From Nymphaea colorata (Eukaryota): DNA of 64,000 nt. Below the pieces are notes generated by a model that saw nothing but the letters and a program-made list of their open reading frames with translations, made no database searches and was not told the DNA's origin. Each line of letters begins with the position of its first letter. Position 1 is the first letter of the stretch. The DNA is taken from contig NC_045138.2 in NCBI RefSeq assembly GCF_008831285.2, positions 29,450,001 to 29,514,000 of the forward strand, read 5' to 3'. Shown here in pieces: positions 16,055-64,000 of this stretch. A program made the translations under genes and the position numbers.

Positions 16055-16486
16055 GGAAAGGGCAGAAAGAGGGAGCAGCTTTACACGAGAGAGAAGCAAG
16101 CTGCGTCTAGGGCAGCGTGAGAGAGAGTCAAGGACGGCAGGAAAGAGAGTGTGTAAAGATCGAGAGAGGGAGGGAGAGAAAGATGGAAACTTTCTTCTTC
16201 TCTTTTGGCGTTAACTTCTCAACATATCATTTTAGTAAAAGAAGGCTAACATTTAAAGAGAATAAAAAAAACTGAAAAACTTAACGAGTAAGTTTAGCAA
16301 CTCGTAAATCGTGCTTTCTCACTATCCCTCCCCTTCAACTTTTTCAGGTTCTGTCATTTTCACACACTTTCTCTTGTTTCCACTTTTCACTCCTTCACGC
16401 ACTCACGTTTTTTTTTTTTTTCTCTTTTTTTTCCACGAGCTCCACACGTTCTCACGAGCTCCTCCACTTCAGGAGTTAGAGCAACA
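16055..16486 (-). repeat. 3' LTR of minus-strand copia (terminal ~85 bp missing)
   Basis: Matches ~20868-21348. The TGTTGGCG... end seen at 20781 is absent. Confidence 0.9.
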
Positions 16487-16495
16487 ATCTCCCCC

Positions 16496-19400
16496 CTAAT
16501 CCTGATGTGGCCCGAGCTCTCGAACACCAAGTACGTGTCGCATTGTTGCCAACTTTGTCGCTGGTAATGCCTTTGTCATAAGATCCGCTCGTTGTTCATC
16601 TGTGCGTACAAAATCCACAATAATATGTCCTCTTTCGACACATTCTCGAATGAAATGGAACTTTGTATCAATGTGTTTACTACGTCCATGAAAAACTGGG
16701 TTCTTCATCAGTGCGATTGCGGACTTGTTGTCCACATACAACTTCACCACTTGCGGCTCTCTCCCAATCAGTTCGGCCAAGAGTCCTCTAAGCCAAAGTG
16801 CTTGACATGCTGCCGCAGTTGCTGCCATGAACTCAGCCTCGCATGAAGACAGAGCAACAGTCTTCTGCTTTTGCGAGTTCCATGAGACTAGGCTTTCATT
16901 TACATAGAATGCCATGCCTCCGGTGCTTTTCCGATCATCAACGTCGCCCGCCAGGTCACTATCCGTGAACCCGACAATGACTTCTTCTCCTTTTCCTCTG
17001 GTGTATACAAGACCGAAGTAGATTGTGCCTTTTAAATAACGCAAAATCTGCTTCACTGCTTTGTGGTGCATCACTGTCGGTCTCTCCATGAATCTACTAG
17101 CTACACCGACAGCATACGAAAGATCTGGTCTTGTGTGGAGAAGATACCTTAGACATCCGATGACTCGTCGATACTTAGTTGCATCCATCGGTTGTCCTTC
17201 GGGATCCTTGTTCAATTGTGACCTTGGTTCCATAGGAATTTTAGTAGGATTGCAATCAAACATACCAAATTGAATTAGTACCTTTTTGGCATAGGCTGCT
17301 TGTTTGATCCAGATACCGTCTTCACCTTGTTCCACCTCAATCCCAAGGTAATAGGTGAGCAGGCCGAGGTTGCTCATCTCGAACTCAACCATCATCTGCT
17401 GCTTGAATGATGCGATTGCATCCGAATCCTCCCCTGTTACAATTAGATCATCAACATAAACTCCGACGATGATACCGGTGCGGTCTTTTCCCCTCGTATA
17501 CATGGCTTGTTCAAGCGCGCACTTTGAGAACCCAAGGTGCTTCAGGCTTCGATCCAGCCGCGTGTTCCAAGCACGAGGTGCTTGTCGGAGGCCGTACAAT
17601 GCCTTGCTTAGTTTGAGCACCATATGCTCCTTGTTCTTCACCGTGAAACCTTCTGGCTGAGTTACATAAACCTCCTCCTCAAGTTCGCCATTGAGGAATG
17701 CTGATTTGACGTCGAGGTGATGAATTTGCCACCCACGGTTGGCTGCGACGGCAAGGATGACTCGCACGGTGTCGAGCCTGGCGACTGGCGCAAACACCTC
17801 ATCGAAGTCGATCCCTTGCCGTTGAACATAGCCTTTTGCGACTAATCTGGCCTTGTGCTTGATCACCTCTCCGTCTGAGTTTTTCTTTAATTTGAACACC
17901 CATTTGAGTCCGATTGCTTTGGTTCCAACCGGTAGGGTTGTCAGCGTCCAGGTTGAATTTTTTTCAATGGATTCAATCTCCTTGGCCATCGCATCCACCC
18001 ATGCCGGTTGGCCCATTGCCTCTTGGTAACACGATGGCTCCTCTATTGCCGCAAGCATGGCCTCTTCTTCGACGTCTTCATCATCGAGCTCGACATGCCG
18101 AGCGTCTCGCATGATATCGTCGATATGTCTATACCGAACGGGTCCGTCATTACTGTCTTCCATCTCCGAGGTTGCGGCAGTTTCATCCGCCAGCAATCTC
18201 TGAGCCGGCGTCACCACCGGCGTTGCTTCGCCACCCATCGGTGTCGATGAAGAAGTAGGGTAGCCTAGATCCATGGATAGCGACCTTCCTGCTTGTTCGC
18301 TTGCAACTGAGTTGTCCACTGTTGATTCATCCTCAACAGTGAAATTCGACGAATCACTGCCTCCTGCATCCATGTTCCAATTCCACTTTAATTTTTCTTC
18401 AAATTTAACATCACGACTTACATGGATTCTCCCGCGCCGCGGATCGAATAATCGGTGTGCCTTGCAGCCATCCTCGACGCCGAGATACACCATTGGCTGG
18501 CTGCGATCATCAAGCTTCTTGAGGTGTGGTGTTGTCACCATGGCATGCGCCGTGCAGCCGAATAATCGAAGATGTGCAAGATTCGGCTTCCTATGACTCC
18601 AAGCTTCATACGGGGTGCACTCGCCCATGGCCTTCGTAGGCAAGCGGTTCAACAGGTAGACTGCGTGTCGTACCGCCTCTCCCCAAAATCTTCCCGGCAT
18701 GCTCATGCTCTTGAGGAGAGATCTTGCCATCGCCATCACTGTCCTGTTCCTCCTCTCCACCACACCGTTTTGTTGTGGTGAGTATGGCGCAGTGAGGTGT
18801 CGCGCAATGCCCGCCTGTTCACACACATTGGCGAACTCAAGAGAGAGGAACTCGCCTCCACGATCGGTCCTGAGCGTCTTGACGCGATGCCCGCACGCGT
18901 TCTCGGCCAGCGCCTTGATCTTCATAAACGCTGAGCATGCCTGGTCTTTTGTTCTGATCACGCACAACCACATCCAACGAGTGAAGTCATCAACTATTAG
19001 TAAGAAATAGCTATTACCGGCAGGGGTGGGTGGCGTGATCGGGCCGCAAAGATCAGCGTGCAAGAGTTCGAGTGGCTCCTTCGCTCGATAGATGGCTGCC
19101 GACGGGAACGACTGTCTCGTCTGCTTCACCACCAAACACTCCCGACATAACTGAGCGGGATGAGAGATAGGCGGTACCCCGGTTGCCATCTTCTTGTTTA
19201 CAAGCATCTTGACGTGGCCAAGACGAGCATGCCACAACCATGCCGGATCTTCGAGGTTTGCCAAGAGACACACTGGCCTTGCAATCTGCAGCTCGATGCG
19301 ATAGAGACGATTTGGCGTGCGTCTCACCTTCATGATCAACTGCCCTGGATTTTTGACAAATACCTCTAGTTTGTCTTCATCCATAACCACCTTGTGGCCC

Positions 19401-19630
19401 ACCTCAGTGAGTTGCCCGAGACTCACAATGTTGCTGCGAAGCTTTGGAATATAATATACTTCCTGGAGCAGCCATTGATCATCATTTTTGCATTTAAAAA
19501 GAATTGAACCCTTACCCATGATCTGCACCGATGAGCCGTCGCCGAACTTCACCTTGCCGGTGATTGCCTCGTTCAACTCCCGAAACTTGACCTTGTCTCC
19601 GGTCATGTGGTTGCTGGCACCGTTATCCAA
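16496..19630 (-). CDS. pol: Copia pol (protease-integrase-RT-RNase H), 1044 aa open frame
   Basis: [92 protein letters not shown]. Confidence 0.9.
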   Translation of the reverse strand: MDNGASNHMTGDKVKFRELNEAITGKVKFGDGSSVQIMGKGSILFKCKNDDQWLLQEVYYIPKLRSNIVSLGQLTEVGHKVVMDEDKLEVFVKNPGQLIMKVRRTPNRLYRIELQIARPVCLLANLEDPAWLWHARLGHVKMLVNKKMATGVPPISHPAQLCRECLVVKQTRQSFPSAAIYRAKEPLELLHADLCGPITPPTPAGNSYFLLIVDDFTRWMWLCVIRTKDQACSAFMKIKALAENACGHRVKTLRTDRGGEFLSLEFANVCEQAGIARHLTAPYSPQQNGVVERRNRTVMAMARSLLKSMSMPGRFWGEAVRHAVYLLNRLPTKAMGECTPYEAWSHRKPNLAHLRLFGCTAHAMVTTPHLKKLDDRSQPMVYLGVEDGCKAHRLFDPRRGRIHVSRDVKFEEKLKWNWNMDAGGSDSSNFTVEDESTVDNSVASEQAGRSLSMDLGYPTSSSTPMGGEATPVVTPAQRLLADETAATSEMEDSNDGPVRYRHIDDIMRDARHVELDDEDVEEEAMLAAIEEPSCYQEAMGQPAWVDAMAKEIESIEKNSTWTLTTLPVGTKAIGLKWVFKLKKNSDGEVIKHKARLVAKGYVQRQGIDFDEVFAPVARLDTVRVILAVAANRGWQIHHLDVKSAFLNGELEEEVYVTQPEGFTVKNKEHMVLKLSKALYGLRQAPRAWNTRLDRSLKHLGFSKCALEQAMYTRGKDRTGIIVGVYVDDLIVTGEDSDAIASFKQQMMVEFEMSNLGLLTYYLGIEVEQGEDGIWIKQAAYAKKVLIQFGMFDCNPTKIPMEPRSQLNKDPEGQPMDATKYRRVIGCLRYLLHTRPDLSYAVGVASRFMERPTVMHHKAVKQILRYLKGTIYFGLVYTRGKGEEVIVGFTDSDLAGDVDDRKSTGGMAFYVNESLVSWNSQKQKTVALSSCEAEFMAATAAACQALWLRGLLAELIGREPQVVKLYVDNKSAIALMKNPVFHGRSKHIDTKFHFIRECVERGHIIVDFVRTDEQRADLMTKALPATKLATMRHVLGVRELGPHQD

Positions 19631-19633
19631 GTA

Positions 19634-20779
19634 TCAGGTGTCGGTAGTTTCTTTACCGTGCTCGGTCCCGTGCAGTTCGGGCCATACTTGCTCTTCATTC
19701 AGCAGGACGGCTTCCTGTCGTTTCTGCCATTCTTGTCTCTCAGGTGCCGCGGGCACTGCTTCTTCTAACTCTGCAAGCAACAGAGTTGGTTCGGTGTCGT
19801 CAGTTTGTGTGAGATGCGCCTCTTCCTTCTTTTTGGGAGCCTTGCACCGGTTCGCATAATTCCCCAATTCGTTGCAATTGAAGCAACGGATGTGACTCTT
19901 GTCACGACCATCGCCTCCAGAGCCACCTACTCTGTCTTTCAGTGGGAAGTCGCCTCGTCCGCCTCTCCCGCGCCCTCTACCGCGCCCGCGACCACCCCGG
20001 CTGCGAACTCCTCCTTCCCTGTGACTCGTCTCCCTTCGGGTCAACGACGGGTCGCTGCCGCTTCTCTTCTGCCGTGCCTCCCACTCAGCTTGAGTGAGAA
20101 GCAGTTGTGCATCGCCGTTGCCACCGGTACCGAATGCTCGGGGACGAGAGCGTTCTTCGTACGTCTTGAGTCGTCCCATAACCTCTTCAAACAACATTGT
20201 GTCGAGGTCGCAAAATTGCTCTATGCCCGCGATTACGCTAAGAAACCTATTTGGAACGGTGTCAAATAGCTTCTTGACTAAGGCGGCATCGCTTAGGGTG
20301 CCCTCTAAGTTGGCATACCTGACGGACATTCCGGTGAGCCTGCCCGCATATTGATCCAACGACTCTCCTTCTTGCATCCTCATGGCGTCAAAGTCACTCT
20401 TCAACGTCTGCAGGCGTGCATTCCTCACGCGATCTGCCCCGACAAATCTCGTCTTGAGGCAATCCCAAACCTCCTTCGCCGTCGCCTTCTTCGCCACTTG
20501 CATTAGGAGATCATCTGGGAGGGCTTGGAGAAGATGCGACCTCGCCTTCTTGTCCTTCCTCGTGTCAACAGCCACACCGGCCATCGGCTCGACTGCCTCC
20601 CAGACGCCTTGATCTTCCATCATGGCCTGGACCCTAATCACCCAACTGGTATAGTTGGTCACCGTAAGCAGCGGATATTGGAACGTCCCGCTGGCAATCT
20701 CCCGTGCTGCCTCGTTTGTGATGATCGACATCGGCTTGAATCGAGGGAACTTTGGCATACAACCTGGCTCTGATACCAA
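19634..20779 (-). CDS. gag: Copia gag with CCHC zinc knuckle
   Basis: YPLLTVTNYTSW, TAKEVWDCLK, an RGG tract and CFNCNELGNYANRC (His replaced). In frame with pol and separated only by TGA at 19634-19636. Confidence 0.88.
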   Translation of the reverse strand: MVSEPGCMPKFPRFKPMSIITNEAAREIASGTFQYPLLTVTNYTSWVIRVQAMMEDQGVWEAVEPMAGVAVDTRKDKKARSHLLQALPDDLLMQVAKKATAKEVWDCLKTRFVGADRVRNARLQTLKSDFDAMRMQEGESLDQYAGRLTGMSVRYANLEGTLSDAALVKKLFDTVPNRFLSVIAGIEQFCDLDTMLFEEVMGRLKTYEERSRPRAFGTGGNGDAQLLLTQAEWEARQKRSGSDPSLTRRETSHREGGVRSRGGRGRGRGRGRGGRGDFPLKDRVGGSGGDGRDKSHIRCFNCNELGNYANRCKAPKKKEEAHLTQTDDTEPTLLLAELEEAVPAAPERQEWQKRQEAVLLNEEQVWPELHGTEHGKETTDT

Positions 20780-20780
20780 A

Positions 20781-21348
20781 TGTTGGCGTTCTCCCGCTAT
20801 TTACACTCAATTCCTCTCTTTTGGCAAAATGAAGAGAGGGGACCGTAGGCTGCAACACACCAACGAGGGAAAGGGCAGAGAGAGGGAGCAGCTTTAGATA
20901 GAAGCAAGCTGCGTCTAGGGCAGCGTGAGAGAGAGAAGCAAGCTGCGTCTAGGGCAGCGTGAGAGAGAGTCAAGGACGGCAGGAGAGAGAGTGTGTAAAG
21001 AGCGAGAGAGGGAGGGAGAGAAAGATGGAAACTTTCTTCTCCTCTTTTGGCGTTAACTTCTCAACATATCATTTTAGTAAAAGAAGGCTAACATTTAAAG
21101 AGAATAAAAAAAAACTGAAAAACTTAACGAGTAAGTTTAGCAACGTTTAGCAACTCGTAAATCGCGCTTTCTCACGATCCCTCCCCTTCAACTTTTTCAG
21201 CTTCCGTCATTTTCACACACTTTCTTTTGTTTCCACTTTTCACTCCTTCACGCACTCACGTTTTTTTTTTTTTTTTTTTTTCTCTTTTTTTTTCTCACGA
21301 CCTCCACACGTTCTCACGAGCTCCTCCACTTCAGGAGTTAGAGCAACA
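20781..21348 (-). repeat. 5' LTR of minus-strand copia (568 bp)
   Basis: TGTTG...CAACA termini, 2 nt from the PBS TGGTATCAGAGCC. Confidence 0.92.
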
Positions 21349-28249: not shown

Positions 28250-28576
28250 TGTCACGCAAATTGGAGGAGATCAAGGGAGGAGATCAAGAACCGTTGAGGA
28301 GAACGTTGGAATTGAGGAGAACGTTGAAATTATATAAGGAAATAATATTTTAAGAAAGACCCAAATCTGCCTTCATCTTCTTTGTACCGTTGCCTCAACG
28401 AGTGACTATGGAACGCTTCCTATTATATTGTAATCTCATATAAAGAGCAAGTGTACCTTGAACAAAAACGATATAATGAAAAACAGAGCTCCTCCTTCTT
28501 CTACGGTGGATGTAGGCATCTAAGCCGAACCACGTAAATTCTGTTGTGATCTTTTTCTCTTTGGCTCAACTTATTA
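28250..28576 (+). repeat. 5' LTR (327 bp)
   Basis: Differs from the 3' LTR by a 13-bp duplication and 3 substitutions (by eye). Confidence 0.93.
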
Positions 28577-28623
28577 TGGTATCAGAGCATTATTCGTGAT
28601 CTTGGCATCCAGTCGTCTCCACC

Positions 28624-31600
28624 ATGGCCGAATCACAAATCAATAGGGATCAAGGCAGCAATTCAAGTGATGGTATAAGGAAGTCTACGGCTGATCAAAA
28701 TAACACCTTGAAGATCACAACAATGCTTCTAAATGGATCAAATTATCTAGGATGGGCGAAAGCAGCAATACTCTTTCTTAGTGGGCGATCAAAATTTGGC
28801 TACGTTACTGGTTGATCCAAAATTTGATGAATGGCAATCTGAAAATGATTTAGTCATGTCTTGGTTAATAAATTTCATGGAGCCTAGTGTTTCAAATATG
28901 CTTGTTTATCATGAAACGGCTAAGGATATATGAGATACTTTAAAGGAAGTATATGGGGAACAAAACAGTTTGGCTAGAGTTTATCAAATTCAATTAGAAC
29001 TTGCTCATCTCTCAATGGGAGACAAGTCGATACAATCTTATCTCAGCCAATACCGTAGTCTATGGGAGGAACTAATGCAATATCGCCCTGCTACAACTGA
29101 CCCAAATGTTTATAGACAACATTTGGAAGAAGATAAAATTTTTCGTTTCCTTGGTGGACTCGGAATAGAGTTTGAGAGTGTTAGAAGTCAAATACTCATG
29201 ACAAATCCATTGCCAAATTTTAATCAAGTTTGTCAAAGCATACAAAGAGAGGTTGCTCGCCGGAAAGTTATGAATCCGGAAAAGAAAAGTGAGGCTGCTG
29301 AAGATACTAGTGAAAAACTAGCGTATCAAACTCGTTCAGAACCACGGCCCAACAATTTCAGATCTGATATCAAAGGCGGTGAAAATGTGACCATCATGCA
29401 TAAAGGAAGAAATCGGTTAAAATGTTCATACTGCAAAAAGACTGGACACATTAGAGAAATGTGTTGGGAGCTAAATGGAAAGCCATCTTCAAAAGAGAAG
29501 TCACTTTCATCCAACAGCCCCAACACAGCCAACTTCATCACCCGTGAAGAGTTAGAAAAATTTTTCCAGCATTTTTCTAAGACAAATCTGGTTTCTACTC
29601 AGCCTATTGGAAATTCGTCTGAAGGTACGCACCATGCCTTCATTACTCATTCAAAAAATCTTGGATGGATCATTGATTCCGGGGCCACCGATCACATGAC
29701 CGGTGACCCCTCTAAAATAGTTAATTTAACTCTTGAAAAAAATCGGCATGTATTCACGGCCGATGGCACACCCATTCCTATAGAAGGCATTGGGGAATCT
29801 TGTTTCTTAAAATCAAATAAAAGTTCTTGTGTGCTTTATATTCCTAAACTTTCTGCCAATCTTATATCTATAAGTAAGATAACTAAAGATTATGACTGCT
29901 TAGCTATTTTCTCTCCAAAGAATGTGATTTTTCAGGACAAGAAGTCGAGGAAGGAGATTGGTAGAGGGTATGAGCACAACGGTCTATATGTCTTAGACAA
30001 CATTGAGGTTGGTCTTCTTGCTCGTGCGGAAAAGATATCTGATTACAAATTGTGGCACTCTTGGCTTGGTCATATTTCAGATAGGTCGCTGAAAATTCTT
30101 GTTCCTAACGTCAAACCTGATGGGCATTCTTGTGATGCATGTGAATTCTCAAAATCGACTAGATTACCTTTTCAAAACCCTGGAAAAAGGTTTGTAGAAA
30201 ACTTTGATTTAATTCATTCTGATGTTTGGGGCCCAGCCCCAGTTGAGTCTCATTCTAGATATAGATACTATGTTTCTTTTATTGATGATAAAACTCGCAT
30301 GACTTGGCTTTATTTTCTAAAAAATAAGAGTGATGTTGCTAAAACTTTTGAGGAATATTATGAGCTTGTATACACGCAATATGAGACCAAAATAAAAAAA
30401 TTACGGTCGGACAATGGAGGTGAATATGTCAATAAAATTCTTGATGATTTCATGAAAAAGAAAGGCATATGTCCCCAACTCACTTGTGCCGGTACTCCCC
30501 AACAAAATGGGGTTGCCGAACGCAAGAACCGACAATTGCTTAGTATTGCTAGGTCCCTTATGATGAACATGAATGTTCCCATCCGTTTTTGGTCTGAAGC
30601 AATAGGAACTGCTTGCTATATAGCAAATAGAATACCTAATTCGAGCATTAACGGTCAAATTCCAATTCAATTACTTCTAAACAAATCAGTTTCTATTAAT
30701 CATTTTAAAGTTTTTGGATGCAAATGTTTTGTTCATATTCAAGAAAAATTTAAGAATAAATTAGAAAAAAGAGCTATGAAATGCATTTTTCTTGGATATG
30801 CAAGTAAAAAGAAAGGGTTCAAATGTTATGAACCTCATTTAAAAAAATTCTTTGTGACTCGTGACGTAAAGTTTTTTGAGCAAGAACTGTTTTATGAGAA
30901 TGACGTTCAGGGGGAGACAAAAACATAAACAACTTGTTGACATTAGTCTCCCACAACCTTTGGTAAGCATAAGTAAGTATTCCAATGCAAATCAACTTCT
31001 TGGGAACCAAAATCAAAGTGACGACAATCAACATCCTCAGTCTAATGAAGCTGATCGTACTATTGTTCCTCAAGACAATGAAATATCTCCAAGGCCAACC
31101 CAAAAAGCCGTGACTGAGCAACTATTACGGAGATCGTCTAGATCCACCAAACCACCAACCAGGCTAAGTGATTTCTATACATACTTATCTTTTGACAAAA
31201 TTCATTCCATTGATGATTATCTGACTTTTGAAAATTTGTCAAAATCATATCGAGATTATGTATTGAATACTTACCACCATGAAGAGCCTAAGAATTTCTT
31301 GCAGGCAAACAAGGACCCAAGATGAAGAGACGCCATGAAAGAAGAACTAAAAGCACTATAAAGAAACCACACTTGGGAAATGGTGCCTCTACTAGAAGGA
31401 AAAAAGGTTGTTGGGTGCAAGTGGGTGTACAAAATAAAATATAGGAGTGATGGATCTGTCGAGAGGTTCAAGGCAAGGTTGGTTGCAAAAGGATATACTC
31501 AAACCGAAGGGATCGATTATAATGAAACATTTGCTCCAGTTGCAAAAATGAGCTCTCTCAGAATACTACTATCAGTAGCTTCAAACAAAAGGTGGGAACT

Positions 31601-32812
31601 TATGCAGTTGGATGTAAAAAATGCATTCTTGCATGGTGACTTAAATGAAGAAGTCTTCATGGAAACTCCAGAAGGCATCAAAAGTGAAAAGGGATATGTG
31701 TGTAAACTGAAGAAGGCCCTATATGGTTTAAAACAATCTCCCCGGACATGGTTCTCTTGACTCAGGCTCTTGTGAAAATTGGTTTTTCCAAAAGCACGTC
31801 TGACTATACCATGTTTATCTACAATCGTGCTTCTAAGGTCACCATATTGCTGGTTTATGTAGATGATATTATAATAACAGGAGACGACATTCAAAACATG
31901 ACACGAGTAAAAGAGTATCTCAATAAAGAATTTGAGATAAAAGACCTAGGAAGATGGAGATACTTTCTTGGCATTGAAGTGGCACAATCGGATAAAGGAG
32001 TGTTTATTTGTCAAAGAAAATACACTCTAGATCTCTTCAAAGAAACTGGTTACTTGGGGACTAAGTGTGCTGATACTCCCATGAAAATCAATTGCAAGCT
32101 AAGAAATGAAGAAGGGGAACCAGTTGAAAATGTTCAAAGTTTTCAAAGACTTATTGGAAAGCTTATCTATCTTACTGTGACTAGATCAGACATCACATAC
32201 GCAGCCAATCTTGTGAGTCAGTTCATGCATAAGCCTATGTCAACTCATGTAGAAGCTGCACATCGAATTCTAAAATGTTTGAAGGGGACTCTGGGGAGAG
32301 GAATCTTAATGAGAAGAAACGATTGTCTCAATGTCATTGGATATACAGATGCTGATTGGGTAGGAAATCCAAACGATAGAAGATCAACTTCAGGATATTG
32401 TACTTTTGTGGGTGGAAATCTAGTATCATGGAAAAGCAAAAAAAAATCTGTAGTAGCTCGATCAAGTGCAGAAGCAGAATATAGAGCCATGGCTACCTGC
32501 ACATGCGAGTTGATATGGACTAGAGCCTTATTAAAGGACATGAACATTGAACATAAAGAACCGATGAAATTAATGTGTGACAATATGGCGGCAATTCATA
32601 TCAGTGCTAATCCCGTCTTTCATGAAAGGACAAAACACATAGAAGTGGATTGCCACTTTGTTAGAGAAAAAATCCATAGTGGAATTATTGAAACACCTCA
32701 TGTCAGAAGCGAACATCAGTTGGCTGATATTTTCACAAAAGCTCTCAGCAAAGAAAGACATCACACTATTGCAAACAAGTTGGGACATATTGATATATGT
32801 GCACCAACTTGA
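28624..32812 (+). pseudogene. Copia gag-pol broken by several stops and frameshifts
   Basis: [80 protein letters not shown], spread over 5+ ORF pieces. Confidence 0.92.
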
Positions 32813-32821
32813 GGGGGATAC

Positions 32822-33135
32822 TGTCACGCAAATTGGAGGAGATCAAGAACCGTTGAGGAGAACGTTGGAATTGAGGAGAACGTTGGAATTATATAAGGAA
32901 ATAATATTTTAAGAAAGACCCAAATCTGCCTTCCTCTTCTTTGTACCGTTGCCTCAACGAGTGACTATGGAACGCTTCCTATTATATTGTAATCTCATAT
33001 AAAGAGCAAGTGTACCTTGAACAAAAACGATATAATGAAAAACAGAGCTCCTCCTTCTTCTACCGTGGATGTAGGCATCTAAGCCGAACCACGTAAATTC
33101 TGTTGTGATCTTTTTCTCTTTGGCTCAACTTATTA
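32822..33135 (+). repeat. 3' LTR (314 bp)
   Basis: TGTCACG...CTTATTA followed by the TSD AGGAC. Confidence 0.93.
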
Positions 33136-56096: not shown

Positions 56097-56688
56097 TTAA
56101 AGGGCTGATACGAGCCTTAGTCCGAGTAGGCCTAACCAAGGCCAAAGGCACGGCCACAGTGAGAGATCACGGCTCAATGGAATTAAACTTCGAGCCTAGA
56201 GCAAATGCAGTGGGAGGTGCGGGAGGATATGCAACGGCTCTAGGACATGAATGAACTAGGTGAAGACCAGCAATTGGGGGAATCCGCGAGTTAGGATACT
56301 AGATCCATAGGACTTCTTTGGTATAGGCCATGGTCCATTCTTGAGTCGTATCGAAACCCAAGTCTCTAGAGTCGGTCTAGGACGAGTCTAGGGAGGTCTC
56401 TTGGCTGAATTGAGCTCAGCTCAATGAGGTTAAGGGATGTGTCAAGTCCGAAGTTTGGGCGGCAACCCGGACGAGGTCCCCACCTTGAGCTCACAAGGCT
56501 CAAGGGGCGTCTAGCTAGGACTTAGCCGTTTTTCACTTCTTGATTTGCTTTATTTGAGTTTGCGCCAATTCGGTTTTGGATTCAAACTTACCAAGGCGGG
56601 TTGTGCCTTGGATCCGTTTTGCTTTAGCATGTTCTGGATTTGGATTTGGGCTGGTTCCATGCATGGGAACCAGATTTATGTACTCATG

Positions 56689-56696
56689 TATATAAG
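56689..56696 (+). promoter_or_regulatory. Putative LTR TATA box
   Basis: TATATAAG ~585 bp into the LTR, followed by a CT-rich tract typical of plant 5' leaders. Confidence 0.5.
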
Positions 56697-59171
56697 GTTT
56701 TGATTCATGTGTAAATGGAGGGAATTTTGGGAAATCAAGGTCATTTGCTTCTTTGCTCTCTCTCTCTCCTCACTTCTCTCTCTCTCTTCTCGTGTCTCTC
56801 TCTCTCTCTCTCTCACGTTCCCTCCAATCTCTTCTCCCAAGACCAGCATGCTGGCCCTCTACTTCCCCTTCCCCCTCACGTCTTCCTCTCCTCTCCTTCC
56901 CAACTCCTCACTATCTCCCCTCTCTTTCATTTACATCAATTCTCGTTGAAGAAGAAGGTGAGGGCTTTCTCTTGGGTGAGCCACGGCCCTAGGAGTTATC
57001 ATCGTCTTCATCTTCGCATCTACCCAGCCACGTCTTGGGTGCAATATCTCTGCTACATCAGAGATATTGGAGGCCTAAGTTGAACAAGGAGGCTGCGTCT
57101 TCATCCAAGGAAGGACAGCAAACCCACGGTTTCCTCATACAAGGTTAGTTCTTGGATTCCTAAGGTGAAAGCTAAGCAACTACGTTGGTTTGGTTTGATC
57201 CAAGGTTTGACTTACAAGAAGAGGAGAAGTCTCGAGTCACAGCCGAGATTCCCTTCTTTTCCACGGTTGAAACTTGATTTAAACTAAGTTTTACGTGTCT
57301 TAGAAGATCCTAGGCATTGAGGCTTTCCTAGTTGAGAAATCACTCAAGGAAACGGCACAAGAAGAGTCGATCGATTCTAGTTTTCATCCGCGGTCCATCT
57401 CTGGAATTTCGCCGGCAAAATCAGAATCCCATCCTCAAGAAATCACGGTGAGACCATCTTGGACATGGGAATGGACCATATAAGGTGATTCCACGCAAAG
57501 AAAGAAGAAGATACACATTGGTTTCGCGAAGAACGGCCTAGGCGATAGCAAGCACCAAGTCACCGGGAACTTCTGGTTTTCCGGCGACCTCTGCCATAAT
57601 TCCGGCCACATTTGGGGGATTCTGGTCATCATCACCCAAGGACCAAAGTGCCCTTCCTTGCCACGAAGTGGGACCATCATTTCCAAGGGTAAGTCCGTCC
57701 AAAAGTACTCCAAGGAGATATCGCATGGAGAGGAGATTTTCTAGGCGAGAATTAAGGGGAAACTCCTACATTCTAGCTTCAAAAAGTGGTACGAGCTTCA
57801 TCCTTACCCATCTAAGTCTCTCCTAGCCCTTCATCCAGATCCTTAGGAGAAGATCCGACCCTTGATTTGCACGTGATTTGGAAGAGAATCCCCACATTTG
57901 GAATCATCATTCCACAAGGCGCCACCTCGCCACATTTGACTACATTGGAGGAGCCGGCGCCACTAGTGCCCACATTTGGAGGGATTTGCTCTTTAGTTTA
58001 GGTGATTCAATCATTAACCATCCCTAGATCCCAGCCACATCACATCCCACTTACCACCTTTGAATTTTCAGCCTTAGATCTAGAGGATTATCCTAGGTTC
58101 AAGTGTAGGAGTCCACCTTTTGATCCCACGTCAAACTCACTCACGTGATCCCTAACCCTCCTTAGTTCCTCATTAGCTCTCTCATTTAAACCCAAGCCAC
58201 TCGTTCAATCATCCTTGAACCTAACCACCAATTCCTAATCAACATCCCACATTCCCTTGTCTTAAGCCACCTCATTCTAGACCTCACACCCTTAGATCAT
58301 CTTCCCTTACACCGTAGCCGAAGCCGTCCAAGCCCCTATCGCTCCTAACCGGCCCTAAGCCAGCCACACTTAGGATCATTACCAAGCTCTACGGCCGAGC
58401 TTTCCTCTATTGACTGTAGTTAGGTAATTCCTCAGCTAAGACCAAGCTGAATCCACCCATCCCCAGCCACGACTACAGCATTTGGTGTGCACCCTTGGGC
58501 ATTTCATCCACTCGCCCAAGCGAATTGAGGTTGCTATCACCAAGCAACCGGATCCCGTGTGCTACCACGGCACTCAGCCAGGTGGGCTGAGCTAAGAGGC
58601 TCTCTCTCAGCTATATCTAGAGCCTACTGCCACACCCGGAGCAGCAGCATTTGTATCAGCTCCGTCAAAACCAGCAGCAGCAACCGAGTTGAAGAGAAGA
58701 CATCAAAGACTTTACCAGCGATCTTCTCCAACTTGGCGTCTTACTTGGCGTTGCAGCACCTTCCACCTTGGTGTCCCGATTTTCTCAGCTACAACCTGAC
58801 GTCTGGAATTCATCCTCAACAGCACCTACAGCAGATCATCAAAGAATTCCAGAAGATTCATCAAATGAACCCCGAGCAAGCCTTGGGGAGGTACTTCATT
58901 TAGACTAGTTAGATTTGCTATTTTCCTTGCATAGTTTTGAATCGCTTCCGCATTTGTCCAGTATTCCTGTAGTTTTTCGGTGGCCTAGAGCCTAAGATCC
59001 GGCTACAAGGAGTGTGTTTGGTCTGAGTCTAGCCTTAGTTTCCTCTTTGAGTTGTGTTGGTTCAATCTTTAGGCGTCTTTCGACCCGTGTGGACCCTCTA
59101 CGAGGATCTTGGGTGTAGGATCGACTCTAGGACTGGGCTGTCGCCTATACCGGAGTTAGGTCCTACCAATT

Positions 59172-59184
59172 TGGTATCAGAGCC
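59172..59184 (+). other. Primer-binding site 1 (tRNA-iMet)
   Basis: TGGTATCAGAGCC. Confidence 0.85.
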
Positions 59185-59340
59185 AACGTGGAGGATTCCG
59201 TTGCTTGTTTACATCTTGTGAATTCAAATTCTAGAGTTTATGTTGCTCATAAGTGCAAGAAAGATCGATTTTGGTCAAAGCGGGTGAAAGTTGGAAAGGA
59301 GAGTTCCAAACTTATCCGGCTGATACCAAACCTATCAGTT

Positions 59341-59353
59341 TGGTATCAGAGCC
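59341..59353 (+). other. Primer-binding site 2 (tRNA-iMet)
   Basis: TGGTATCAGAGCC. Confidence 0.85.
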
Positions 59354-59915
59354 ATCTTGAGAGGCCGCCGCACTCAGTTTTCAGATTCCAGCAGTGTTAG
59401 TTTGGTTTGATGGTAGCATAGCAGAAACTCATCCTCTTCAGCCTGCATTTTTTTCAGTTTCTGAAAAACCAGAAACTACGCCGGATTCCGGTGGCCGGCG
59501 CTGTCAGATCCGGCATCAGAATTGGTCAAGGTTAGGCTCGTTGGAAGCGCCTACGTCTCAGGAATCTCCAGTCCAAATTTCAGATTTTTTTGAGTTACGG
59601 GTGAAAAGTTATGATTTTTTGAGTGGACCCCTATCACTGGGGGAGTCCTGCGCGGTTGAAGAGCAAGCCTAGGCGTGACTTTCAGAAGAACGAGTGCTTT
59701 CCTGGAGCAGAGTTAGAGCTTGATCTTGGTGGCGTTGGATTCCTTATCGTGTCTAGTATTTTGCTACCAAGTTTCGTGATTTTTGGACATCGAGTTAGAG
59801 AGTTACAGAATTTATAAGTGTCGTGGTTTTCAGCTTTTAGTAGTTCAGTTTGGTGTTTGAAATAGATAGCTTAGAAAGTTTTTAAGCATTTGTTTTGATT
59901 TAAGAGAAGGCAAGA

Positions 59916-61706
59916 ATGATGGAAGAAGGTGCGTATCCCAGAAGTTTAGATGTTGATTTAGTGTTTAGCACCTATTCTTACGGAAAACTCGTGGAAGAGA
60001 AGATTTTAGTTCACAGAGAAGATTGGAGTTACGGCCCACAGTTCATCAGTTTCTTGATTGGACAAAACCCGAGATGCGACATCATCCTACGAGATGTCAG
60101 TGTAATGGGTTATCATTGTGTGATTGAAGTGGACAAGGGGACCTGTAACATTAGGATCACCAATAGGACCTTAGTGGGTCGACTTAGGGTTGCAGGAAGA
60201 GTAGTCAACCTGGGTGAGCTTTTACAAGTTTATCCAGGAGAAGTGATACAAATAGGAGACATGAGTCATAAGTTTGTGTTGGAAGAAATCCCAGCACCCA
60301 AACCCGTCAAACAAGTAGGGAAACCTGGAAATAGTAACCCAGGAAAGTCATCTCCTAACATTGAAGAGATGATACGACAAGCGCTCTCAAAGATGGATGA
60401 GATATTGGACAACGTGAAACAAGAGAAGCCTCACGTGGAGTTAAGGAGCAACACGTCCAAGGGCATGGTTCCGACCAACATGAAGAGCAAAGAGCTACTC
60501 GGACCAGCTACTCCGCCACCTCGCACGGAGCACATGAGCAAAGGCAACGGAAGCAAGAACCAAGGCATCATGAGTGCGGTGTCACAACCACCTCCAAAGA
60601 AAACTGACAACACTAAAGCCTACCGCAAGGCCTACTCAACTAAAGGCCTTACTCAAAAATCCGAGGTCCCTCAGACCAATTATCAACCTAAGAAAAGGGA
60701 CGAAGTAAGCAGGAACAAGAGAGATGAAATGCACCAAGCGGTAGAGACAATCAAATGTGAAGTGCCGAACAATAGCCTCAAGGGCAAGGGTGTTCATGAT
60801 CAAGCTATAGTTGAGGAGCCATCCAACAACTCAAGTGATGGCGAATCATTGAAGACATGGACTACCAATGAGTTATTGGCTGAAATAGAAAGCAAGTGTC
60901 AAGAGTGCGAATCTATTGAAGAGACACTTCCAAGTGAAGATTCTTTAGGATCACATGAAGAAAGAGCTTCAATCTCTACAAACTCAATGCACGCGTCTAG
61001 TCCCAACCAAGCATTAGATACGTACAAAGAAGAATCTTTAGTGTGTACAGCTCTAGCTTCACCCAACATGATGGAAGTGGAAGAATCAAGCGAGCTTCAA
61101 CCTCTTGAGATCATACAGCCAGAAGACAAGGTGGAGCTAATCCGTTGTCAAATGCCAGAAGATCTTAACCTTGAAGATCAAAGGAATGATGTAGAAAAGG
61201 CAAGCAGCATGGACTCTAATGATCCCATGGAAATAGAAGGAGATGAAGAGTCCAGCCAGCGAAGCGAGGATCATCCATCATATCCTTCCACAATAGAAGA
61301 TAAGGCAGATCATAAGGAGGGTGGAGCGGATTCAACTGACTGCTCACAGATTGTGGAAGAGTTACAACTACAAGCAACCCAAGAGTTAGCTTTCCACATG
61401 ACGTGCTCACACCAAGACCAAGGTAGCGGACCACGGGTGGAGCAACTTGAAGGAATACCCTCTTGTCAGAATCATCCACAGAGCGAGGATACGTGGTTAG
61501 CCCCTATTGAGATGAGTGAAAGTGATCAACATGCTAAGCTTCGTTGCATCCAAAAGTGGCAAGAGGAAGTGCAAGAGGAATTAGTAGGATTCTTTCTGAG
61601 TTTGAAGATGATTTCTTGTGCAGTTCTGATGATGATCACACTATTACTTTGGAGCCAAGACCATCATTCAACCAATATAAGGCTCCTCAAGAAGATCCAC
61701 GAGTGA
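59916..61706 (+). CDS. ORF1 of the LTR element: N-terminal FHA-like domain plus long basic then acidic low-complexity region (596 aa)
   Basis: FLIGQNPRCDIILRDVSVMGYHCVIEV...IRITN...RVAGRVV...QVYPGEVIQIGDMSHKFVL (60051-60281) follows the FHA pattern hhIGR.P.CDI.L....S..H..I...GD.I.IG. Confidence 0.75.
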   Translation: MMEEGAYPRSLDVDLVFSTYSYGKLVEEKILVHREDWSYGPQFISFLIGQNPRCDIILRDVSVMGYHCVIEVDKGTCNIRITNRTLVGRLRVAGRVVNLGELLQVYPGEVIQIGDMSHKFVLEEIPAPKPVKQVGKPGNSNPGKSSPNIEEMIRQALSKMDEILDNVKQEKPHVELRSNTSKGMVPTNMKSKELLGPATPPPRTEHMSKGNGSKNQGIMSAVSQPPPKKTDNTKAYRKAYSTKGLTQKSEVPQTNYQPKKRDEVSRNKRDEMHQAVETIKCEVPNNSLKGKGVHDQAIVEEPSNNSSDGESLKTWTTNELLAEIESKCQECESIEETLPSEDSLGSHEERASISTNSMHASSPNQALDTYKEESLVCTALASPNMMEVEESSELQPLEIIQPEDKVELIRCQMPEDLNLEDQRNDVEKASSMDSNDPMEIEGDEESSQRSEDHPSYPSTIEDKADHKEGGADSTDCSQIVEELQLQATQELAFHMTCSHQDQGSGPRVEQLEGIPSCQNHPQSEDTWLAPIEMSESDQHAKLRCIQKWQEEVQEELVGFFLSLKMISCAVLMMITLLLWSQDHHSTNIRLLKKIHE

Positions 61707-62545
61707 ATCGTGAAGGCCCAATGGCTAAGAGTGGGCACATTGAATCGTATGAGAACAAGGAAAGATCTTTGTCCACCCATTCTCTATTACAACAACAGAT
61801 GATACATCCTAAGGAGGGTGGACAACAACAAAATGAAGAGGTGATTCACAGAGATAAGAATGAAAAACTCTACCCAAAAAGATGGAGAGCATTCCAGTAC
61901 TCAGAGTCACCAAATTGCAATGAAGAGATGTGGAACCCCTCGAGTTCATGTGAGGATTACAAGTCGGAGTCACCAACATCAATTGACTCCAACGACATGA
62001 GCGCAACTGAGGTGCAATGGGCAGTACAGAGTAATTGTAAACAGAAAGACTACATCATCAACCAACAAGTACTACAAGCAGGTGGGCGCCTATGGCAAGC
62101 CCACGACAGAGGGAAGGCCCTCGCACATCAGGAGGGCACTATTGAGCAGCTACAAGGGCTGCAAAAGAGGGCTATAGGGCAACTCCCAAGGGATTATAGT
62201 CCTAAACAAGTGCAAAAACCACTACAACATGGTGGTAGAAAGTGGCAACCACATGACCGTGGTAAAGCCATGTCAACGAATGAGATCCAGAATGATGAAA
62301 GGCTGCTTGGGCAACCAATGAAGCGAATTGGACAGTTACCTCGAGACTATGGTCCAGACACATTGACCATAGCTAAACTCAGAGTTAAAAGGGCCATGTT
62401 CAAGGTTTATTCAAGAGGCCCAAGAAGATGTTTCCTCCATCTTAGGAACTCAGTGAAGGTGTTACCCAGAGACTATGGACCAGGGAGGAAACACAAGGTG
62501 AAAGATGACTGCGTGCGTCAGAGCCACCAAGAAACAAGTTCATAA
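61544..62545 (+). CDS. ORF2 of the LTR element (333 aa as called), probable frameshifted continuation of ORF1, with HDRGKA / LPRDY repeats
   Basis: Overlaps ORF1 in the -1 frame. Contains ILSEFEDDF...DHTITLEP and ~50-aa repeats. Stops 38 nt before the 3' LTR. Confidence 0.7.
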   Translation: MHPKVARGSARGISRILSEFEDDFLCSSDDDHTITLEPRPSFNQYKAPQEDPRVNREGPMAKSGHIESYENKERSLSTHSLLQQQMIHPKEGGQQQNEEVIHRDKNEKLYPKRWRAFQYSESPNCNEEMWNPSSSCEDYKSESPTSIDSNDMSATEVQWAVQSNCKQKDYIINQQVLQAGGRLWQAHDRGKALAHQEGTIEQLQGLQKRAIGQLPRDYSPKQVQKPLQHGGRKWQPHDRGKAMSTNEIQNDERLLGQPMKRIGQLPRDYGPDTLTIAKLRVKRAMFKVYSRGPRRCFLHLRNSVKVLPRDYGPGRKHKVKDDCVRQSHQETSS

Positions 62546-62569
62546 TGAGCTTGGGGACAAGCTCGATTT

Positions 62570-62581
62570 AAGGAGGGTGGA
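62570..62581 (+). other. Polypurine tract
   Basis: AAGGAGGGTGGA, 2 nt before the TG of the 3' LTR. Confidence 0.8.
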
Positions 62582-62583
62582 TC

Positions 62584-64000
62584 TGATACGAGCCTTAGTC
62601 CGAGTAGGCCTAACCAAGGCCAAAGGCACGGCCACAGTGAGAGATCACGGCTCAATGGAATTAAACTTCGAGCCTAGAGCAAATGCAGTGGGAGGTGCGG
62701 GAGGATATGCAACGGCTCTAGGACATGAATGAACTAGGTGAAGACCAGCAATTGGGGGAATCCGCGAGTTAGGATACTAGATCCATAGGACTTCTTTGGT
62801 ATAGGCCATGGTCCATTCTTGAGTCGTATCGAAACCCAAGTCTCTAGAGTCGGTCTAGGACGAGTCTAGGGAGGTCTCTTGGCTGAATTGAGCTCAGCTC
62901 AATGAGGTTAAGGGATGTGTCAAGTCCGAAGTTTGGGCGGCAACCCGGACGAGGTCCCCACCTTGAGCTCACAAGGCTCAAGGGGCGTCTAGCTAGGACT
63001 TAGCCGTTTTTCACTTCTTGATTTGCTTTATTTGAGTTTGCGCCAATTCGGTTTTGGATTCAAACTTACCAAGGCGGGTTGTGCCTTGGATCCGTTTTGC
63101 TTTAGCATGTTCTGGATTTGGATTTGGGCTGGTTCCATGCATGGGAACCAGATTTATGTACTCATGTATATAAGGTTTTGATTCATGTGTAAATGGAGGG
63201 AATTTTGGGAAATCAAGGTCATTTGCTTCTTTGCTCTCTCTCTCTCCTCACTTCTCTCTCTCTCTTCTCGTGTCTCTCTCTCTCTCTCTCTCACGTTCCC
63301 TCCAATCTCTTCTCCCAAGACCAGCATGCTGGCCCTCTACTTCCCCTTCCCCCTCACGTCTTCCTCTCCTCTCCTTCCCAACTCCTCACTATCTCCCCTC
63401 TCTTTCATTTACATCAATTCTCGTTGAAGAAGAAGGTGAGGGCTTTCTCTTGGGTGAGCCACGGCCCTAGGAGTTATCATCGTCTTCATCTTCGCATCTA
63501 CCCAGCCACGTCTTGGGTGCAATATCTCTGCTACATCAGAGATATTGGAGGCCTAAGTTGAACAAGGAGGCTGCGTCTTCATCCAAGGAAGGACAGCAAA
63601 CCCACGGTTTCCTCATACAAGGTTAGTTCTTGGATTCCTAAGGTGAAAGCTAAGCAACTACGTTGGTTTGGTTTGATCCAAGGTTTGACTTACAAGAAGA
63701 GGAGAAGTCTCGAGTCACAGCCGAGATTCCCTTCTTTTCCACGGTTGAAACTTGATTTAAACTAAGTTTTACGTGTCTTAGAAGATCCTAGGCATTGAGG
63801 CTTTCCTAGTTGAGAAATCACTCAAGGAAACGGCACAAGAAGAGTCGATCGATTCTAGTTTTCATCCGCGGTCCATCTCTGGAATTTCGCCGGCAAAATC
63901 AGAATCCCATCCTCAAGAAATCACGGTGAGACCATCTTGGACATGGGAATGGACCATATAAGGTGATTCCACGCAAAGAAAGAAGAAGATACACATTGGT
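62584..64000 (+). repeat. 3' LTR (truncated by the window end)
   Basis: No mismatch seen versus 56106-57522. The ORF track shows identical peptides at offset 6478. Confidence 0.93.

What the first reader, a model, noticed from the sequence alone, without database searches (positions are those of the whole stretch)
62066..62485. Peptide repeats in ORF2 keep their amino acids while codons change: internal evidence of purifying selection
Seen: IGQLPRDY is encoded ATA GGG CAA CTC CCA AGG GAT TAT (62174) and ATT GGA CAG TTA CCT CGA GAC TAT (62327), so 7 of 8 codons differ and all changes are synonymous. HDRGKA is CAC GAC AGA GGG AAG GCC (62102) versus CAT GAC CGT GGT AAA GCC (62252), with 4 of 6 codons differing synonymously. 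A third LPRDYGP lies at 62462. The repeat period is ~150 nt (LQ.GGR.WQ.HDRGKA...IGQLPRDY.P). Inference: these are old, protein-level-selected short linear motifs, so the cargo protein is or was functional rather than random filler.
Basis: partly seen in the sequence, partly recalled or inferred. Interest (0 to 1): 0.72.

Follow-up and report, generated by a model that had tools for sequence, protein, structure and literature searches.

The report
Gag-less retrotransposon protein with selected repeats
A young water-lily-type jumping gene that lacks the usual replication genes carries one long protein whose short repeated motifs keep their amino acids while the DNA changes, so the protein was likely kept by selection, possibly to help the element borrow a related element's machinery.

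Summary
All codons are as stated. Across the whole 44-codon unit, 26 amino acids are identical and 16 codons silently recoded; neutral models expect about 12-15 and 4-6. The repeats lie in a young LTR retroelement (LTRs identical over 1,417 nt, Met PBS, PPT) with no gag or pol domain. 'ORF2' is not a separate gene: the frameshift near 61,590 is absent from most or all contig depth in four runs, and three diverged Nymphaea thermarum relatives carry the same layout in one frame: an FHA fold lacking its phosphate-binding residues, linker motifs, LPRDYGP-type copies, and a tail across the PPT. LPRDYGP is conserved across subfamilies 27-44% alike; HDRGK and the first/second-unit duplication are subfamily-specific. 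An internal control exists: three PPT-like repeats keep identical codons (DNA-level), the peptide repeats do not. The repeats resemble the GPY/F segment of chromovirus integrases, but my tests of that were mostly not significant. Expression is untested. Verdict: a protein-coding non-autonomous retroelement family with a selected accessory protein; function inferred, not shown.

The parts
56106..59168 (+). 5' LTR, about 3.06 kb, begins TGATAC
   Evidence: direct repeat at offset 6478, no mismatch over the 1,417 nt visible; end set by the PBS
59172..59183 (+). primer binding site, initiator-Met type (assignment from PMC3605345 passages and recall)
   Evidence: directly behind the LTR
59320..59352 (+). 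second PBS copy (59341-59352) held in a perfect 12-bp hairpin with its upstream complement
   Evidence: z -3.9, 1 of 200 shuffles as stable
   Evidence: one-frame relatives P0002, P0003, P0004
59952..60293 (+). FHA-fold domain without the Arg, Ser and Asn that bind phosphothreonine
   Evidence: Pfam PF00498 26.6 bits, cut-off 20.7; model pLDDT 75-89 over the domain; Foldseek FHA hits from E 2e-5; residues
60360..60419 (+). predicted helix after the FHA fold, possible coiled coil
   Evidence: predicted only
60591..60638 (+). conserved motif PP[RK][RK]T-x5-YR-x2-[YF]S
   Evidence: present in 4 of 4 full-layout proteins
60858..60899 (+). conserved WT-x-x-[ES]...EI/V...C motif
   Evidence: alignment; P0004 by eye
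61313..61325 (+). internal PPT-like copy 1 (reads KEGG), DNA-identical to the PPT
61585..61600 (+). frameshift of this copy (real mutation or assembly error)
   Evidence: absent from 635.1 of 635.1 contig depth in X1, 272.4 of 363.7 in X7, 290.2 of 430.7 in X8, two contigs in X3
61810..61822 (+). internal PPT-like copy 2 (reads KEGG), DNA-identical to the PPT
62072..62203 (+). repeat unit 1: LQxGGRxWQxHDRGKA ... IGQLPRDYSP
62222..62356 (+). repeat unit 2: LQxGGRxWQxHDRGKA ... IGQLPRDYGP
62402..62482 (+). last module VYxRGPRxxFxxxRNSxxxLPRDYGP, the most conserved stretch of the C-terminal half
   Evidence: 15 invariant columns in 27 across four proteins, 117 of 10000 shuffles
62543..62548 (+). 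two adjacent stop codons, present in X1 contigs, absent from X3, X7 and X8 contigs
   Evidence: table 3
62549..62583 (+). in-frame tail AWGQARFKEGG spanning the polypurine tract (62570-62581); DNA shared with many other elements
   Evidence: (39-53 contigs per run join here with other upstream DNA)
62584..64000 (+). 3' LTR, cut by the window end

Best explanation
The repeats are amino-acid-conserved motifs near the end of the only long protein of a water-lily-type LTR retroelement that has no gag or pol domain, and that protein likely works as an adaptor that helps its own element use a related autonomous element's machinery. Shown: the element anatomy, the silent recoding, one reading frame with an FHA fold in diverged relatives, loss of the FHA phosphate-binding residues. 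Inferred: selection on a helper-dependent element's protein is easiest to keep if the protein favours the RNA or cDNA that made it. The basic, PRDYGP-ended repeats would be duplicated, remodelled copies of the segment that opens the chromovirus integrase C-terminal (GPY/F, SH3) domain; they would contact the helper integrase or the nuclear import route, with extra copies adding avidity. The FHA fold would be a phosphate-independent binding surface, the following helix an oligomer contact, the acidic middle a spacer. The double PBS and triple PPT-like tracts would be the matching DNA-level aids. Odds: protein-level selection about 0.9; acting for the element itself about 0.6; integrase origin of the repeats about 0.45.
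For: Silent recoding far beyond neutral models. Same layout in one frame, without stops over 653-743 residues, in P0002, P0003, P0004 at 27-28% identity to the window in the N half and 35-44% in the C part. P0002's gene model holds the same LTR-derived text at both ends with the PBS peptide behind the first, so that relative is also LTR-flanked (by eye). The three length changes with contig depth over 50 net to 3, 15 and 63 nt; the two that shift the frame have depth 4.8 and 12 (5 indel rows were not shown). No new stop among 38 coding variants (chance 0.13). Three KEGG repeats keep identical codons while LPRDYGP does not. In the Beta vulgaris supplement 4 of 8 Reina-clade integrases read PRFYGP behind an LQPYRQ stretch and 3 of 8 end in WG; the family has P[HR]..K/C...PRDYGP and then AWGQ in the same order and frame. 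The paper links the basic stretch before GPY/F to a possible nuclear localisation signal.
Against: Integrase homology is not statistically shown: profile alignment lands on PRxYGP but 31 of 150 shuffles score as high; of 24 pairwise unit tests only 2 had under 50 of 1000 shuffles (8 and 27), and the tail tests were not significant; Pfam SH3_Tf2-1 does not hit any family member at E 10 although it hits a real integrase at 2e-24. The window copy is frameshifted yet has identical LTRs, and differs from X1 contigs at 4 places in 1.2 kb, so a broken copy may have moved without its own protein. X1's family ends the frame before the tail. P0001 has 3 of its 17 differences inside motif cores, and P0003 reads LSCDYGP and LPRDNGP. 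Selection among close copies is weak (p 0.046). No expression, binding or helper data.
Confidence: 0.4

Rival explanations
1. The protein acts on the host (anti-silencing factor or decoy, as proposed for VANC-type accessory proteins). The FHA fold was captured from a host gene, and the repeats are host-binding short motifs with no link to integrase.
For: Captured host-like FHA fold with rewired binding face; long low-complexity linkers with short conserved islands; precedent for accessory TE proteins built from host domains with many predicted host contacts (PMC13547354 passages); weak integrase statistics. A trans-acting protein fits a broken copy that still moved.
Against: A purely trans-acting benefit is open to free riders, yet at least three diverged subfamilies keep the frame. 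No DNA-binding domain found. The donor of the FHA was not found.
Confidence: 0.27
2. Selection is historical. The motifs were constrained in ancestors (or the units came from two diverged parents by template switching); present copies only carry the frame along while they spread on their cis signals.
For: Frameshift in this copy, early stops in X1's family, motif-core changes in P0001 and P0003, 22 of 38 top variants are not silent.
Against: Major length variants between species stay in frame; 2-2.2 kb frames stay open in three relatives; the unit 1/2 duplication is younger than the subfamily split yet shows strong silent bias.
Confidence: 0.22
3. The constraint is on RNA or DNA (packaging signal, structure, or a frame kept open only to avoid decay of the RNA), and the peptide likeness is a by-product.
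For: The KEGG repeats and the AWGQ tail of the same frame are DNA-level signals.
Against: Third positions change most and second positions least (17 against 2 of 26); an open-frame-only null still expects about 14-15 identical residues, not 26; a folded FHA domain is kept.
Confidence: 0.06
4. Chance match or cherry-picked motifs in random filler.
For: Motif blocks were picked after the fact; the unit is short.
Against: Whole-unit tests with the linker included reject it; four relatives keep the motif.
Confidence: 0.02

Closest known systems
LARD / TRIM non-autonomous LTR retrotransposons
   Same: Long LTRs, PBS, PPT, no gag or pol; must borrow a helper.
   Different: Defined as lacking coding regions (PMC5818461 passage); this family has a 650-875 residue conserved protein.
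TR-GAG elements
   Same: Non-autonomous, one retained frame.
   Different: Their frame is Gag; no Gag or protease domain among 70 stop-free stretches here nor in P0002-P0004.
Additional ORFs of plant LTR retrotransposons (Retand TRP28, Grande, Ogre, Athila ORF1, ATLANTYS ASY2-like, orchid demethylase)
   Same: Conserved accessory proteins of unknown or inferred function, some built from host domains.
   Different: Those sit beside gag-pol, mostly in non-chromovirus lineages; here the accessory frame occupies the place of gag-pol, runs in sense across the PPT, and carries an FHA fold. No paper linking FHA with an LTR retrotransposon came up.
Reina-clade chromoviruses (likely helper lineage)
   Same: Met PBS, frame extending across the PPT into the 3' LTR (as in Bingo1-4 and 7), WG at the chromodomain end, PRxYGP-like motif.
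   Different: No RT, integrase core or chromodomain; LTR of 3 kb. CRM integrases also share LHLR and LPRxDGP with the last module, so the clade is not settled.
FHA domains (Ki-67, kanadaptin, DDL, Rad53)
   Same: Fold and Pfam cut-off met; structural Gly and His kept in 4 of 4.
   Different: Arg, Ser and Asn that contact the phosphopeptide (PMC3071787 passage) are replaced in 4 of 4.

Membership tests
Non-autonomous LTR retrotransposon | two LTRs with PBS and PPT | tested here: met
Non-autonomous LTR retrotransposon | no gag-pol domains | tested here: met
   0 of 70 stop-free stretches of 40 aa or more in 56107-62700 hit a retroelement family at E 0.05
Non-autonomous LTR retrotransposon | target-site duplication | not testable with these tools
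   3' end lies outside the window; no genome held
LARD | internal region without coding capacity | tested here: not met
   conserved long frame
TR-GAG | Gag (and protease) domain | tested here: not met
   the copia Gag in P0001 is a fused neighbour in that gene model
Chromovirus, Reina clade | placement by RT/RH/INT phylogeny | not testable with these tools
   the element has none of these domains
Chromovirus, Reina clade | chromodomain at the end of the frame | tested here: not met
   no Chromo hit; only a short WG-containing tail resembles its end
Chromovirus, Reina clade | frame runs across the PPT into the 3' LTR | tested here: met
   P0002-P0004 and X3/X7/X8 contigs; not in the window copy or X1
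Integrase GPY/F (SH3_Tf2-1, PF24626) module | significant profile match of the repeats | tested here: inconclusive
   best alignments land on GPY in 16 of 24 tests but are mostly not significant; 31 of 150 shuffles; no Pfam hit
FHA domain | beta-sandwich fold and family profile | tested here: met
FHA domain | phosphothreonine-binding Arg, Ser, Asn | tested here: not met
   replaced in 4 of 4 proteins

The most novel reading that the evidence does not exclude
A class of helper-dependent retroelements that replaced gag-pol with a purpose-built hijacking protein: a captured, rewired FHA fold plus multiplied fragments of the helper's own integrase tail, acting in cis to commandeer the helper's particle or integration complex, supported by duplicated priming signals. 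This would be a plant retroelement counterpart of satellite elements that encode their own piracy proteins.
Probability: 0.25. Interest if true: 0.85.

Novelty: new variant of a known kind. Interest (0 to 1): 0.58.

Why it matters
Non-autonomous LTR elements are usually treated as non-coding passengers or as keepers of Gag. A family whose only protein is neither Gag nor Pol, yet is conserved across subfamilies under 45% alike and still spreading, raises a testable question: how does a dependent element gain from its own protein? The answer is either cis-acting piracy of the helper or manipulation of the host. It also warns that FHA 'genes' in Nymphaea annotations (P0002-P0004) are mobile-element products.

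Tried and rejected
No whole genome was held, so no genome-wide copy set or dN/dS. Word-indexed protein searches with ORF2 residues 170-335 and with ORF1 found nothing (0 of 292 and 0 of 7071 candidates); the full HMMER scan found 3 relatives and a search with P0002 one more. Metagenome scans found no relative (83 and 300 pattern matches, none confirmed). Four viral loci are chance motif matches in unrelated text. Atlas search of the repeats gave only scores under 0.8; of the FHA only generic bacterial FHA clusters. PDB sequence search with the repeat alignment gave a weak TALE-repeat match (E 0.013) and uS4 (E 0.92), rejected; Pfam SLED (E 0.004, below cut-off) rejected. Single-sequence fold was poor (pLDDT 47). 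Integrase patterns found nothing in viral contigs; 4 of 5 genome-contig hits were chromovirus integrases, L008 was dropped as unrelated. A recalled likeness of the FHA to plant PS1 could not be tested: the supplement is a picture and none was readable for the other paper. Expression: no RNA holder listed and no RNA reads were laid, so it stays open. No complex prediction was obtained. Earlier scan notes: nothing.

Full report
Observation. I tested the whole unit, linker included, to avoid picking. Over 46 aligned codons pS is 0.73 and pN 0.32. Over 44 codons with 55 mismatches, 26 residues are identical and 16 codons are silently recoded. Neutral duplication gives 13.4-15.0 and 4.8-6.3; no run of 4000 reached 26 in any of 12 settings, and one run in one setting reached 16 silent codons. 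The settings that forbid stops behave the same, so keeping the frame open does not explain it. A null that keeps mismatch density in blocks of 9-24 nt gave 0 of 20000 in 8 settings. Only this frame shows it (22 of 26 residues; others 4-14).

The element. The repeats lie in an LTR retroelement: 5' LTR 56106-59168, PBS at 59172, PPT at 62570, 3' LTR from 62584, with no difference over the 1,417 nt visible. With the rate of 1.3e-8 quoted in PMC5818461 (passages) my arithmetic gives an upper bound near 80,000 years, unless the assembly merged the LTRs. None of 70 stop-free stretches in six frames hits a gag or pol family. The last 45 nt before the 3' LTR are shared with 39-53 contigs per run that carry other DNA upstream, as expected of a signal shared with helper families.

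One protein, not two. Contigs from four runs of four studies (organisms A, B, D, E; X1 may be the window's own source) lack the frameshift near 61,590 in all or most of their depth. Contigs drop rare variants, so the break may be a private mutation or an assembly error. P0002, P0003 and P0004 carry FHA, the PP[RK][RK]T..YR motif, three KEGG, two LPRDYGP-type motifs and the AWGQ tail in one stop-free frame of 653-743 residues. They are 27-28% (P0002, P0003, N half) and 35-44% (C part) identical to the window; P0003 is 32-33% identical to the other two, which are 68% alike. P0002's gene model repeats the same LTR-derived text at both ends and has the PBS peptide after the first copy (by eye), so that subfamily is also an LTR element; introns in that model could hide sequence. 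The two stops at 62543-62548 are in X1 contigs and not in X3, X7 or X8.

What is conserved. The last module (VYxRGPRxxFxxxRNSxxxLPRDYGP) has 15 invariant columns in 27 (117 of 10000 shuffles; a 10-column window was not significant, 1866 of 10000). IG[QR]LPRD[YNF]GP precedes it in all. HDRGK is not kept in the distant three (PHRGK, WPAHGG, THMDK), and the extra unit occurs only in the window and P0001. Among close copies the signal is weak: of the 40 best-supported variants (434 more were not shown) 38 are coding, 16 silent against 10.8 expected, p 0.046, none a new stop. The length changes with depth over 50 net to 3, 15 and 63 nt; frame-shifting ones have depth 4.8 and 12 (five rows not shown). 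P0001 differs at 17 of 153 residues, 3 in motif cores.

An internal control. The same frame holds three KEGG repeats whose 13 nt are identical to the PPT and occur nowhere else in the window's first 56 kb. All three full relatives also have three. These are DNA-level repeats; the LPRDYGP repeats beside them are recoded. The contrast shows both kinds of constraint in one frame.

The FHA. It passes Pfam's cut-off in 4 of 4 proteins, folds with pLDDT 75-89 given three relatives and matches FHA structures (46 chains at E 0.001 or better). Gly and His are invariant, but the Arg, Ser and Asn that contact the phosphopeptide in Rad53 (PMC3071787 passages) are replaced in all four. It likely does not read phosphothreonine. 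Its donor was not found.

Origin of the repeats. In the Beta vulgaris integrase alignment (PMC3605345: passages and supplement 2) Reina-clade rows read LQPYRQ, then 15 residues to PRFYGP (4 of 8 rows exactly), and 3 of 8 end in WG; CRM rows read LHLRK and LPRxDGP. The family has P[HR] then 14 or 17 residues to PRDYGP, and AWGQ later in the same frame. I tested this with four integrase ends fetched from contaminant contigs. The profile alignment fell on PRxYGP but was not significant (31 of 150). Pairwise, 16 of 24 best alignments fell on GPY, partly by construction, and only 2 beat 50 of 1000 shuffles; tails did not score. Those integrases come from distant plants and the alignments are shallow, so the idea is open, about 0.45.

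Mechanism. Shown: a conserved, non-Gag, non-Pol protein in a helper-dependent element. Inferred: for selection to hold such a protein in several subfamilies, it should favour its own template. I favour an adaptor that binds its own RNA or cDNA and docks on the helper integrase or import route through the basic PRDYGP repeats (0.40). Host manipulation (0.27) and a relic carried along (0.22) remain live; the broken but young window copy fits them better. Expression and binding are untested.

Known comparisons. Extra ORFs in plant LTR elements are common and mostly sit beside gag-pol in non-chromovirus lineages (PMC6317226 passages; PMC11963269 passages; PMC7264820 first third; PMC13547354 passages). 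LARDs are defined as non-coding and TR-GAGs keep Gag. Searches listed no paper on an FHA-bearing LTR element or on this Nymphaea family; one search listed 25 of 82, none with 'forkhead-associated'. The library lacks most subscription journals, and repeat libraries were not searchable, so the family may already have a name. Unread supplements (for example the eORF tables of PMC6317226) could bear on novelty.

Verdict. New variant of a known kind; interest 0.58.

Noticed in passing
window 59320-59352: Second PBS copy 170 nt behind the first, locked in a perfect 12-bp hairpin (z -3.9). P0002's gene model also shows two PBS-like peptides before its start, so the double PBS may be a family trait.
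   Followed up: partly
window 61313-61325, 61810-61822, 62569-62581: Three identical 13-nt PPT-like tracts; three KEGG in each of P0002-P0004. Possible extra plus-strand priming sites.
   Followed up: partly
window 61865-61975: KLYPxRWRA[FY]..SPNC motif kept in P0002 and P0004; a short SESP repeat here matches a 63-nt in-frame loss in X7 and X8 contigs.
   Followed up: no
window 16087-21281 (minus strand): Copia-like element (label from reading the translation) with gag and pol frames separated by one stop at 19633/19634, LTR pieces 95-98% alike.
   Followed up: no
window 28276-33134: Second copia-like element, LTRs 99% alike, pol in several frames, inserted behind an ankyrin-like frame.
   Followed up: no
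window 7900-52150: Tandem cluster of at least four ankyrin-repeat/PGG-like membrane protein genes or remnants (label recalled, not scanned).
   Followed up: no
L005, L006, L007, L009: Short contigs in four prokaryote genome assemblies encode plant-type chromovirus integrase ends, likely contamination.
   Followed up: partly
P0001: Gene model fuses a copia Gag with this family's repeat region: a nested or neighbouring insertion annotated as one gene.
   Followed up: partly
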